DNA of 64,000 bases from assembly GCF_006345805.1 (NCBI RefSeq), contig NC_043006.1, forward strand, positions 682,001 to 746,000, given 5' to 3'. Position numbers and translations under genes: made by a program. This stretch comes from Octopus sinensis. Lineage: Eukaryota. The notes beneath the pieces were generated by a model that was not told where the DNA came from, did not search any database, and saw only the letters and a program-made list of their open reading frames with translations. Shown piece after piece: positions 8,976-62,099 of the stretch. Within the stretch, counting starts at the first letter, position 1. Every line of letters begins with the position of its first letter.

Positions 8976-9577
8976 GGCGGCGAGCTGACAGAAGCGTTAG
9001 CACGCCGGGCGAAATGCGTAGCCGTATTTCGTCTGCCGCTACGTTCTGAGTTCAAATTCTGCCGAGGTCGACTTTGCCTTTCATCCTTTCGAGGTCGATT
9101 AAATAAGTACCACGCACTGGGGTCGATGTAATCGACTTAATCCGTTTGTCTGTCCCTGTTTGTTCCCTCTGTGTTTAGCCCTTCGTGGGTAGTAAAGAAA
9201 TAGGTATTTTGTCTGCCGCTACGTTCTGAGTTCAAATTCCGCCGAGGTCGATTTTGCCTTTCATTCTTTCGGGGTCAATTAAATAAGTGCCAGTTACGCA
9301 CTGGGGTCGATATAATCGACTTAATCCCTTTGTCTGTCCCTGTTTGTTCCCTCTGTGTTTAGCCCCTCGTGGGTAGTAAAGAAATAGGTATTTCGTCTGC
9401 CGCTACGTTCTGAGTTCAAATTCCGCCGAGGTCGACTTTGCCTTTCATTCTTTCGGGGTCAATTAAATAAGTACCAGTTACGCACTGGGCTCGATGTAAT
9501 CGACTTAATCCCTTTGTCTGTCCCTGTTTGTTCCCTCTGTGTTTAGCCCCTTGTGGGTAGTAAAGAAATAAGAATAA
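8976..9577 (+). mobile_element. SINE family A trimer (one head + two headless about 184-bp units)
   Basis: tatt(t)cgtctgccgctacgttctgagttc restarts at about 9025, 9205 and 9389. Confidence 0.9.
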
Positions 9578-16693: not shown

Positions 16694-17065
16694 GTCCCCA
16701 AAGTCCATCCCCTCCTCACCGGGGTGGGGACGCTGGCAACGGGTAGTGTCAGAGCTATGCCGTCGGGAACTTCGGTTCCTGGTAGGGCCACCCAAGGCGG
16801 ATTGGTCTGACACCGAGTGGTATTAGGGCCACAACCCGGCAGACGGGGCTCTGGTGAAAATCCTCGGAGTGTCTGTTTGTGTCCCCAAAGTCCATCCCCT
16901 CCTCACCGTGGTGGGGACGCTGGCAACGGGTAGTGTCAGAGCTATGCCGTCGGGAACTTCGGTTCCTGGTAGGGCCACCCAAGGCGGATTGGTCTGACAC
17001 CGAGTGGTATTAGGGCCACAACCCGGCAGACGGGGCTCTGGTGAAAATCCTCGGAGTGTCTGTTT
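16694..17065 (-). repeat. Tandem duplication, 2 x 187 bp, of an RTE-like 5'UTR segment
   Basis: 16694-16878 vs 16881-17065 differ by about 1 nt; contains GGCCCTACCAGGAAC..GTTCCCGACGGCATAGCTCT...CCCCACCACGG, resembling RTE LINE 5'UTRs. Confidence 0.8.
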
Positions 17066-24549: not shown

Positions 24550-24965
24550 GGTGGCGAGCTGGCAGAACCGTTAGCGCGTCGGGCGAAATGCTTAGCGGTA
24601 TTTCGTCTGCCGTTACGTTCTGAGTTCAAATTCCACCGAGGCCGACTTTGCCTTTCATCCTTTCGGGGTCGATTATATAAGTACCAGTTACGTACTGGAG
24701 TCGATGTAATCGACTTAATCCGTTTGTCTGCCCTTGTTTGTCCTCTCTGTGTTTAGCCCCTTGTGGGTAGTTAAGCAATAGGTATTTCGTCTGCCGCTAC
24801 GTTCTGAGTTCAAATTCCGCCGAGGCCGACTATGCCTTTCATCCTTTCAGGGTCGATTAAATAAGTACCAGTTACGTACTGGAGTCGATATAATCGACTT
24901 AATCCGTTTGTCTGTCCTTGTTTGTCCCCTCTGTGTTTCGCCCCCCGTGGGCAATAAAGAAATAA
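24550..24965 (+). mobile_element. SINE family A dimer
   Basis: Head plus a second headless 184-bp unit from about 24781. Confidence 0.88.
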
Positions 24966-59742: not shown

Positions 59743-60099
59743 CTATGAAGAGATGGTAAATATAGAATAAATATCATTCTTCTTATATGAATATTGGTTG
59801 TTAAGAATTACATATTGAATGTGAAGAAGTAATCAAAAGAGTGGAATAGTTTGTTTCAGTTGTTGATTGGTTTGAGCCAGCTATATATCCTGTGGGAGCT
59901 ACGAGTATAGGGAGAGTTTACAGAAAAAACAAAAGACGAAGACAGGTGGTGTAGAAAACAAACAGATGTATTAGTATAACGCTCAGGGATAGAAAAAGTC
60001 TTTTACGCTCTTCTACAGAAAGGGACACAGAAAAAAACAAGGAGAGAAACAAGGAGAGAAAAAAATGTGTGTAGTGGCTAACGATCTATCATGGCGACT

Positions 60100-60182
<83 letters not shown>

Positions 60183-60276
60183 ATCCAAACAAGAAAACAC
60201 AAAAAACACAACAACGCGAGGACGTGGAACAAATATAGTATTATTGGACGCTCAGGAAAGAAGGGAAGAAGGAGGA

Positions 60277-60309
60277 TTTAACGTTTCGAGCGGAGCTCTT
60301 CGTCGGAAA
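60277..60309 (-). ncRNA. Minimal hammerhead-like motif (CCGACGA-A variant)
   Basis: UUU-CCGACGA-A-GAGC(UCC)GCUC-GAAA-CG-UU|AAA; palindromic ACGU stem III. Confidence 0.6.
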
Positions 60310-60485
60310 CATAGGAGAAGGAAAGATCCCGAGAAGGGAAGACAGAGGAAAAAAATCGCCAACGGTACACACGAGGTCACATTTTGAAAGACCAGGGAGA
60401 GTTTACGAAAAAAACCAAAAGATGAAGACAGGTGGTGTACAAAACAAACAGATGTATTAGTATAACACTCAGGAATAGAAAAAGT

Positions 60486-60521
60486 CTTTTACGTTTCGAG
60501 CCTACGCTCTTCTACAGAAAG
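60486..60521 (-). ncRNA. Minimal hammerhead-like motif (CUGUAGA-A variant), copy 1
   Basis: CUUU-CUGUAGA-A-GAGC(GUAG)GCUC-GAAA-CG-UA|AAAG; A6 replaced by U. Confidence 0.55.
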
Positions 60522-60922
60522 GGACACAGAAAGAAACAAGGAGTGAAAAAAATGTGTGTAGTAGCTAAAGAAATTATAAAGAAAGTAATGATAATAATAA
60601 TAATAACAGTTTTACATAAAGTTCAAAGGTTTTTTGACGTCGTGGTGTATTGCAAGGATTTTTCATCAAGAGTAGAGTCCTCAGTGATCCGTAGGTAGGA
60701 GAGGTGCAGCCGGAGGATAAATATCCAAACGAGAATCCGTAAAGAGTAGATAGAAAGTCCAGCGCAGAAGTTCGTGTGTGATAAGAAATGACAAGATCAA
60801 TTGGTGCGACCACGTGAGTGTGTGATATATAGGGAGATATTACGAAAAAAAACAAAAGACGAAGACAGGTGGTGTAAAAAACAAACAGATGTATTAGTGT
60901 AACACTCAGGAATAGAAAAAGT

Positions 60923-60958
60923 CTTTTACGTTTCGAGCCTACGCTCTTCTACAGAAAG
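60923..60958 (-). ncRNA. Minimal hammerhead-like motif (CUGUAGA-A variant), copy 2
   Basis: Identical to 60486-60521, 437 nt away. Confidence 0.55.
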
Positions 60959-62099
60959 GAACACAGAAAAAAAAACAAGGGGAGAAACGAGGAGAGAAAA
61001 AATGTGTGTAGTGGCTACTGATCAATCATGGCGACTGGTATATATCATGGCTTCTAGTATATATGTGTGTATTAATCTGATCACATTTATCAGAATGGAC
61101 AATGGGCAGCTTCTGAAATATCTTTTCTATGATAAGTTGAAACAGTGTAAGTGTTGAATGGGTGTATGGTGCAAATGCTATGGATGCCTCTTTGAAGCTT
61201 CTCAGGAAGACTTCTGCATCAGTCCAGAAATAAGGACTAGTCTTAAGTCTAACACACACACACTTATAGAGCATGACATGGTCATGGCTGGATTTGGACT
61301 CAGAATATAAAGGATTATAACCAAATACAAGAAGGTATTTTGTTCAAGGCTTTAATGAATCTCACTAGCCATTAAAAATTGATTAACCTGTATTTGTGTA
61401 GGAATGTGTGGATGAGAAGTTCACTATCTAACTACGGATTCGAGTTCTGTCCCACTGCATGGCACCTTGGGCAAATGTCTTCTAGAACAGCCTTGAGTTG
61501 ACCAAAACCTTGTCAGTGGATTCAGTAAATAGAAACTAAAAGAAGCCCCTTTTGTGTATGTGTGTGTGTGTGTGTGTTGTGTGTGTGTGTGTGCACGTGT
61601 ATGTACCATCATCATCATCATTATCCTTTAACGTCCGTTTTCCATGCTGGCATGTGTTGGACGATTTGACCAGAGCTGGCAAGACAGGAGAGCTGCATCA
61701 AGTTCCAGTCTGATTCAGTTTGGTTTCTATGGCTAGATGACATTCCTAATGCCAACCACTTTAGAATGTGTGCTGGGTGCTTTTAAAATGGCATCAGTAT
61801 GAGTGCTTTTATGTGGAACCAACGTGTGTGCTTTTTTTTAGGGGCACTGGCGCGGAGCTCCTACAGGCCAATCTTCTTCATCCGATGGAGTGGCATTATC
61901 ATTTCTGCTGTTGTGGATGGGTCTTCTTGAGTTACACCATGGCACAGGATATCTCGATTCTTTGCAAGGGACAGTGTTCTGAGGTCATTCTTCAGTTCTT
62001 CATCCCACGTCTTCCCGGATCTCCCTCTTCCACGAGTTCCATCCTCTTTGAGTGATCAGAACTTCTTTATAGAGCTGTCAACATCCATCCGCAATATAT

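What the first reader, a model, noticed from the sequence alone, without database searches (positions are those of the whole stretch)
59909..61037. Retrozyme-like array: repeated hammerhead motifs that would excise a 437-nt RNA from the intron
Seen: two identical motifs CUUU-CUGUAGAA-GAGC(GUAG)GCUC-GAAACGUA-AAAG at 60923-60958 and 60486-60521, inside direct repeats bracketing a unique about 260-nt spacer, with predicted cut sites 437 nt apart. They are sense to the host gene and 0.75-1.2 kb upstream of the 3' splice site at 59743. Established: non-LTR retrozymes and PLE pLTRs use tandem minimal hammerheads that pair through palindromic stem III, and some yield small circular RNAs. Inference: host transcription could release a 437-nt monomer or circle. 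Caveat: the core has U at the normally invariant A6 and an extra A after A9, so activity is uncertain.
Basis: partly seen in the sequence, partly recalled or inferred. Interest (0 to 1): 0.7.

Follow-up and report, generated by a model that had tools for sequence, protein, structure and literature searches.

The report
Octopus jumping-gene ends, altered hammerhead core
The two ribozyme-like motifs are the ends of a broken copy of a very common octopus jumping gene and likely release little or no 437-nt RNA; the oddity is that this jumping-gene lineage, intact copies included, has U in place of a normally invariant A while keeping the rest of the ribozyme pattern.

Summary
The motifs, coordinates, 437-nt spacing, orientation and splice site are confirmed. 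The spacer is not unique. It is the first ~255 nt of the body of a Penelope-like element (PLE), and the repeats are its pseudo-LTR ends. The pair is an internally deleted PLE; 19 of 30 spacer loci are similar, and 18 of 18 mapped junctions differ. A second PLE family's end and a core-deleted third copy complete the cluster. The exact motif occurs 2,751 times in the genome. The extra A is normal for PLE minimal hammerheads. U6 is not copy decay: it is present in 132 of 136 readable flank-selected copies and 43 of 43 protein-selected ones, including intact ~950-aa ORFs. Positions 7 and 17 vary freely, and helix I shows a compensatory swap. Retrozyme membership fails: no tandem unit, weak folding, non-canonical core. 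Cleavage is untested and probably low. The locus is ordinary; the lineage-wide U6 core is a modest new variant that I did not find in print (one key paper unreadable). The scan reported a different PLE core variant in another genome.

The parts
60831..61037 (-). Copy 1: 3' part of the pseudo-LTR of PLE family A, starting at the family's usual 5' truncation point
   Evidence: 87% to the left pLTR of full-length L061; 52 of 89 family copies begin 81-100 nt before the cut site
60923..60958 (-). Minimal hammerhead-like motif 1, core CUGUAGA+A (U6); predicted cut between 60927 and 60926
   Evidence: 2,751 exact genome copies of its 35-nt part
60575..60830 (-). 'Spacer': first ~255 nt of the PLE body (5' region upstream of the ORF), cut off at an AT-rich stretch
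   Evidence: follows the left pLTR directly in L061, L062 and L063 at 82-90% identity; 403 candidates in the genome
60394..60572 (-). Copy 2: 3' part of the right pseudo-LTR, joined to the spacer by an internal deletion of ~3.8 kb
   Evidence: maps to r4405-4579 of the L061 reference, while the spacer ends at r628
60486..60521 (-). Minimal hammerhead-like motif 2, identical to motif 1; predicted cut between 60490 and 60489
60180..60393 (-). 3' end of a second, younger PLE family with a CCGACGA (U4C) core at 60306-60281
   Evidence: 96-99% to 39 other loci; L225 has a GIY-YIG-type ORF piece 856 nt upstream
60100..60178 (.). (TA)n tract, the typical insertion context of these families
   Evidence: copies of both families usually end in (TA)n
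59909..60099 (-). Copy 3: solo family A pseudo-LTR end with a 13-nt deletion that removes the 3' strand of helix II and GAAA
59593..59742 (-). Host exon 3 of a PMP22/claudin-family gene; acceptor AG at 59744-59743
   Evidence: 100% to a protein labelled Octopus vulgaris; PF00822 E=6e-13; spliced contigs in 3 of 4 runs

Best explanation
The pair is an internally deleted copy of a high-copy Penelope-like retrotransposon in an octopus intron, and its two hammerhead-like motifs are the element's standard end motifs, which likely cut little or not at all here. Shown: repeat = pseudo-LTR end; spacer = start of the element body; neighbours = a second PLE family's end and a core-deleted third copy beside a (TA)n tract; U6 is fixed across the lineage, intact elements included. 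Inferred: reverse transcription started at the pseudo-LTR end on uncleaved RNA, primed at a (TA)n target, copied ~180 nt, then jumped to the AT-rich start of the body and ran on into the left pseudo-LTR. Such jumps would be recurrent, since every mapped junction differs. The other two pieces would be separate insertions into the same tract. Also inferred: U6 weakens chemistry, transposition does not need efficient cleavage, and the motif's shape is still kept for a residual, perhaps protein-assisted, role in autonomous elements rather than at this locus.
For: Full-length pLTR-ORF-pLTR elements L061 and L063 carry the repeat at both ends, with the spacer right after the left one. RVT_1 E=7e-07; 656 homologues, many of those listed with both RT and GIY-YIG domains. 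19 of 30 spacer loci are mini-copies; the 18 mapped junctions are all distinct and rejoin 45-147 nt upstream of the cut, none at it. 5' ends at the cut +/-3 nt: 0 of 89, 0 of 30 and 0 of 30 in three U6 sets. 7 of 89 family loci have a second same-strand core within 780 nt, so close pairs are common. Circular 437-mer MFE -51.5 vs shuffles -56.0+/-4.5, with 51 of 60 shuffles as good or better; forced dimer +19.8 kcal/mol. Literature: CUGA mutants show low activity (PMC9901934); natural A6C kobs <0.1/min (PMC3088659); PLE minimal hammerheads are weak even as dimers (PMC4209133); hammerhead mutants do not affect insertion in vitro (PMC11167929); 8 of 9 predicted Xenopus dimers did not cleave (bioRxiv 10.64898/2026.07.22.740005).
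Against: No cleavage assay exists for A6U in this context. The truncation test does not discriminate: the canonical-core control also gave 0 of 29 at the cut. Five of 119 A/B copies begin 5-6 nt after the cut, inside a T run. The motif is more conserved between U6 subfamilies than its flanks (35 of 36 vs 98 of 140 gap-free columns), which argues for some function. Folding models penalise three-way junctions, and I ran no active-dimer control. The anole PLE hammerhead cleaves only with its protein, so naked-RNA rules may understate activity. The GIY-YIG hit on L061 itself is weak (E=0.087).
Confidence: 0.8

Rival explanations
1. U6 is a working natural core variant. In autonomous elements the motif self-cleaves slowly or with help from the element's own protein, and this locus would give a trace of 437-nt RNA when host pre-mRNA passes through.
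For: Among 166 U6/4-nt-loop motifs, position 7 takes all four bases and position 17 is A or U in 165: the two positions free in real hammerheads. Helix I pair 1.4 is C-G in 144 of 166 U6 motifs and G-C or G-U in 35 of 38 A6 triloop motifs, a compensatory swap. U6 is in 43 of 43 protein-selected elements, including 949- and 963-aa ORFs, and in one old element whose endonuclease is only 55% identical (L215). Protein-assisted cleavage is published for another PLE.
Against: A6 changes impair other hammerheads. Subfamilies B and C were picked through motif-bearing members, which inflates the conservation statistic. A second, non-ribozyme block in the pLTR is about as conserved. The helix I swap may predate U6. 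No cleavage footprint in genomic ends. Copies 1 and 2 sit in a dead element with no protein of its own.
Confidence: 0.15
2. The unit is a true non-LTR retrozyme: host transcription releases an abundant 437-nt monomer or circle that is itself mobilised.
For: Size 437 nt and GC 36.8% fit the class. Two intact motifs lie in the same orientation in a transcribed intron. Copies 1 and 2 share a C-to-T change found in only 4 of 89 family copies, so they probably arrived together. Retrozymes are proposed to derive from PLE ends.
Against: Only one unit, and no tandem array. Junction shared with none of 17 other mini-copies. Not highly self-paired. The core is minimal and non-canonical, whereas described retrozymes carry canonical type I motifs.
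Confidence: 0.04
3. The pair is a chance juxtaposition: a short solo copy inserted into the AT-rich 5' region of an older element, with no template jump.
For: PLEs are reported to insert into or beside existing copies and to cut AT-rich DNA. The left breakpoints cluster in an ATT-rich stretch.
Against: The rest of the older element should follow the inserted copy. In the mini-copies it does not; (TA)n or unrelated DNA follows. Copies 1 and 2 share a rare change.
Confidence: 0.05

Closest known systems
Minimal hammerheads in pseudo-LTRs of metazoan Penelope-like elements (Cervera and De la Pena 2014, PMC4209133)
   Same: U-rich lead-in, 4-bp helix I, extra nucleotide between 9 and 10.1, G10.1-C11.1, GAAA, palindromic ACGU in place of helix III, H17; thousands of dispersed solo copies, some close pairs.
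   Different: U at position 6 fixed across a lineage; published consensus is CUGANGAH, and the only core change named in the sections I read is U3-A8. Helix II is 4 bp, at the short end.
Canonical EN+ Penelope-like elements with a CX2-5CxxC linker (Neptune-type; Craig et al. 2021, PMC8557442)
   Same: Single ORF, RT then C-terminal GIY-YIG, Cys-rich linker, direct pseudo-LTRs, microsatellite insertion bias.
   Different: The window copy has lost the whole ORF. Clade placement was not tested by a tree, so Nematis is not excluded.
Non-LTR retrozymes of animals (PMC7229834; bioRxiv 10.64898/2026.07.22.740005)
   Same: Non-coding unit of a few hundred nt bounded by type I hammerhead motifs, low GC, related to PLE ends.
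   Different: No tandem array of the unit, minimal non-canonical core, weak predicted self-pairing, private junction, no circRNA evidence. At most it is the raw material from which a retrozyme could arise.
Natural A6C hammerhead of phage Bcep176 (PMC3088659; PMC7151607)
   Same: Natural change at position 6.
   Different: A single phage motif with C6, low activity in Mg2+ and better activity in Mn2+; here U6, at high copy number, in a minimal type I motif, activity untested.

Membership tests
Penelope-like element (EN+), parent family | Direct pseudo-LTRs flanking one ORF | tested here: met
   L061 and L063; intact 949-aa ORF with motifs on both sides in L341
Penelope-like element (EN+), parent family | RT followed by C-terminal GIY-YIG endonuclease | tested here: met
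   RVT_1 E=7e-07, GIY-YIG weak at E=0.087; closest homologue P0021 has both; KPADKG, YIDD, YIGQTG in order
Neptune clade | CX2-5CxxC linker between RT and endonuclease | tested here: met
   read by eye in the L061 and L062 translations; my regex was mis-specified and missed it
Neptune clade | RT tree placement with Neptune references | not tested
   no named reference set was fetched
PLE minimal type I hammerhead | Core CUGANGA | tested here: not met
   U6 in 81 of 84, 25 of 25 and 26 of 27 readable copies; A6 in 0 of 136
PLE minimal type I hammerhead | Extra nucleotide after A9, G10.1-C11.1, GAAA, palindromic 15.1-16.1, H17 | tested here: met
PLE minimal type I hammerhead | Helix I pairing with covariation | tested here: met
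   C-G vs G-C/G-U at pair 1.4 between lineages; this is one evolutionary event
PLE minimal type I hammerhead | Self-cleavage as a dimer | not testable with these tools
   needs an in vitro assay; folding predicts the dimer is disfavoured
Non-LTR retrozyme | Tandem repeats of the whole unit, each with a complete hammerhead | tested here: not met
   no 437-period array; spacer occurs once; third copy core-deleted
Non-LTR retrozyme | Canonical type I hammerhead | tested here: not met
   minimal motif with U6; no Rfam hammerhead hit
Non-LTR retrozyme | Unit 150-450 nt, GC under 45% | tested here: met
   437 nt, 36.8% GC
Non-LTR retrozyme | Highly self-paired circular RNA | tested here: not met
   z=+1.6 linear; z=+1.0 circular, 47% paired
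Non-LTR retrozyme | Unit spread as a family from a shared master | tested here: not met
   18 of 18 mapped junctions distinct; sample limited to the 30 best spacer loci
Non-LTR retrozyme | Abundant linear and circular RNA in tissue | not testable with these tools
   only assembled contigs were available

The most novel reading that the evidence does not exclude
A lineage of octopus Penelope-like elements (on the order of 15,000 copies by extrapolation, intact young elements among them) uses a hammerhead whose 'invariant' A6 has been replaced by U. The fold is still under selection and either cleaves with help from the element's protein or has become a non-catalytic protein-binding signal. Recurrent template jumps keep generating hammerhead-spacer-hammerhead mini-copies such as this one, the raw material of retrozymes. 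Searches that require CUGANGA would miss the whole lineage.
Probability: 0.3. Interest if true: 0.65.

Novelty: new variant of a known kind. Interest (0 to 1): 0.36.

Why it matters
The locus itself is one of thousands of transposon remnants and probably does nothing for the host gene. The lineage-wide U6 core matters more, because the role of hammerheads in Penelope-like elements is an open question. One genome here holds successful families with canonical, U4C and A6U cores side by side, a natural series for testing whether cleavage is needed. If U6 is dead, intact U6 elements show in vivo that it is not needed. If U6 works, the accepted core rules are too strict and motif searches undercount these ribozymes.

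Tried and rejected
Rfam scan: no hammerhead match; uninformative for minimal motifs. Sequencing runs: no RNA holder listed, contigs only. Laying 4 of 22 runs on 60330-61060 gave fragments of a high-copy repeat and no usable evidence on cleavage, circles or expression of the unit. The pile-up test for 5' ends at the cut site was negative in U6 sets and in the canonical control, so it cannot tell active from inactive cores. Automatic microhomology lengths over-extended in T-rich sequence and were not used. I first read the 64 A6 matches as a canonical sister subfamily and dropped that: flank-selected samples of those subfamilies are U6, so they are best read as single T-to-A mutants. An alternative register with an inserted U breaks the C3-G8 pair and was rejected by inspection. 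U6 as a splice-acceptor signal (UAG) was rejected because position 7 varies. Pfam on the 49-aa exon alone found nothing relevant. Luense et al. 2017 on PLE hammerhead variants is not held. Searches for print; none of the listed titles or abstract openings describes a U6 PLE hammerhead or octopus PLE hammerheads; one search listed 15 of 34.

Full report
Observation. The two 36-nt motifs are at 60958-60923 and 60521-60486 on the minus strand, with predicted cuts 437 nt apart. They sit in direct repeats 87% alike. A third copy at 60099-59909 lacks 13 nt of the core, and a fourth motif with a CCGACGA core lies at 60306-60281. The host is a PMP22/claudin-family gene whose exon 59742-59593 is 100% identical to a protein labelled Octopus vulgaris. 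The upstream exon lies ~2.5 kb beyond the window end. Contigs in 3 of 4 runs splice that exon straight to 59742, so the intron, its acceptor and host expression in some samples are real.

What the repeat and spacer are. The repeat had 2,917 first-look candidates, and its 35-nt motif has 2,751 exact matches against 0 for the reversed control. The spacer is also repetitive (403 candidates; 42 matches listed from 40 scored). Three spacer loci run on into an ORF. L061 and L063 are full-length: repeat, spacer, ORF, repeat, about 4.2 kb from cut to cut. The ORF has an RVT_1 domain (E=7e-07) and a weak GIY-YIG hit (E=0.087), a CX4CxxC linker read by eye, and 656 homologues at E<=1e-20; the best has both RT and GIY-YIG. 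This is a canonical Penelope-like element of Neptune type by its linker and (TA)n context; no tree was built. The window pair is left pseudo-LTR end, first ~255 nt of the body, then a jump to the right pseudo-LTR. The 60393-60180 piece is the end of a second family, 96-99% identical to 39 other loci, one of which has an endonuclease ORF piece upstream.

Mini-copies recur. Of the 30 best spacer loci, 19 jump from the same ~100-nt AT-rich stretch into the right pseudo-LTR, 3 continue into the ORF, and 8 do neither. I mapped 18 of the 19 (L054, which has an insertion, was left out). All 18 junctions differ, rejoining 45-147 nt upstream of the cut. Cut-to-cut spacing is 342-511 nt in the 6 loci where both sites were matched. 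In an unbiased sample chosen by a flank pattern, 2 of 89 copies are of this mini type and 7 of 89 have a second same-strand core within 780 nt. One of 90 loci was dropped as a duplicate. The pair is therefore neither rare nor the product of a shared master. Template jumping during reverse transcription is my inference; internal initiation on unprocessed RNA at AT-rich targets is published for an anole PLE (PMC11167929).

The core. The extra A is a conserved trait of PLE minimal hammerheads (PMC4209133); only A6 to U departs from that consensus. U6 is not decay. In copies chosen by flank, position 6 is U in 81 of 84 (set A, 5 unreadable), 25 of 25 (B, 5 unreadable) and 26 of 27 (C, 3 unreadable), and never A. 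A control family had A in 25 of 25 (4 unreadable, 1 duplicate dropped). In 50 elements chosen by the endonuclease protein (the 30 best hits plus 20 picked for long frames, of 150), 43 had a readable downstream motif and all 43 had U6, including those with 949- and 963-aa ORFs. A relaxed pattern has 29,101 exact matches. My hand count of the first 100, all on contig 1, is 51 U6 (all with 4-nt loops; position 7 U 25, A 11, C 11, G 4), 29 CCGACGA and 20 canonical. About 15,000 U6 copies is an extrapolation. The 64 A6 matches in the U6 context are best read as single mutants.

Is the fold still selected? Among three U6 subfamilies, 35 of 36 motif columns are identical, the exception being position 7, against 98 of 140 gap-free flank columns (P=3e-4). 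That figure is inflated, because B and C were found through motif-bearing members, and another pLTR block is similarly conserved. Independent of that bias: the protein-selected set keeps the motif; positions 7 and 17 vary as hammerhead rules allow; and helix I pair 1.4 is C-G in 144 of 166 U6 motifs but G-C or G-U in 35 of 38 A6 triloop motifs (221 motifs from all fetched loci, not a random sample, and one event). This suggests a kept structure but does not show cleavage.

Would it cut? Against: mutations in the CUGA turn gave low activity in a full mutational scan (PMC9901934); the natural A6C variant is slow (PMC3088659); PLE minimal hammerheads are weak even as dimers; 8 of 9 predicted Xenopus dimers did not cleave. 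The forced double-hammerhead is 19.8 kcal/mol above the free ensemble of the 641-nt precursor, and the 437-mer folds no better than shuffles; no active control was folded. For: the conservation above, protein-assisted cleavage in another PLE, and Mn2+ rescue of A6C (PMC7151607). No copy begins within 3 nt of the cut in any set, the canonical control included (0 of 89, 30, 30, 29), so that test is silent.

Papers seen. PMC4209133: parts 1-2 of 4 and passages of supplementary file 2; file 1 not searchable. bioRxiv 10.64898/2026.07.22.740005: parts 1-3 of 5; supplements closed. PMC11167929: parts 1-2 of 4. PMC8557442, PMC7229834, PMC3088659, PMC7151607, PMC9901934, PMC6765202: passages only. Luense et al. 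2017: reference entry only. Hammerhead numbering and the freedom of positions 7 and 17 follow these papers and my own knowledge. I found no report of a U6 PLE hammerhead, but unseen supplements may hold one.

Verdict. An ordinary cluster of PLE remnants that looks like a retrozyme unit but fails its defining tests. The lineage-wide U6 core is a new variant of a known motif and is directly testable. Interest 0.36.

Noticed in passing
window 60306-60281 (-); G000 genome-wide: A second abundant, young PLE family has a U4C core (CCGACGA; 29 of the first 100 relaxed matches). Some CTGACGA copies may be CpG-decayed versions of it.
   Followed up: partly
window 60975-60947 and 60538-60510 (-): U6-A7-G8 follows a long pyrimidine tract, so each family A copy looks like a strong 3' splice acceptor, sense to the host intron and upstream of the real one. 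The spliced contigs seen use only the normal site.
   Followed up: partly
L046, L047, L055 (G000:C15 ~4.088-4.090 Mb): Tandem and inverted copies of the element's 5' body piece without a hammerhead, ending at the same AT-rich stretch followed by (TA)n; a possible second start site for reverse transcription.
   Followed up: no
sets A and K: Solo copies have a sharp 5' truncation hotspot; in set A 52 of 89 begin 81-100 nt upstream of the cut site. It may be a transcript start or a second-strand priming site.
   Followed up: partly
L339-L344 (e.g. G000:C10:22690800-22697800): Young U6 subfamily (CUGUUGA, GUU triplet) with long open frames of 822-963 aa in the search (five of the six confirmed, L339 not), which points to recent activity.
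   Followed up: partly
P0001; window 59742-59593 and ~50300-50014: The host protein is labelled 'endoglucanase 4-like' by its source but is a PMP22/claudin-family protein; the label looks wrong.
   Followed up: yes
window 9024-9570, 24597-24951, 16694-17065: Tandem arrays of 184-187-nt units, probably SINE-like repeats.
   Followed up: no
window 57147-57123 (-): A CTGACGA...CTCGAAA string that loosely fits a hammerhead core outside the cluster.
   Followed up: no
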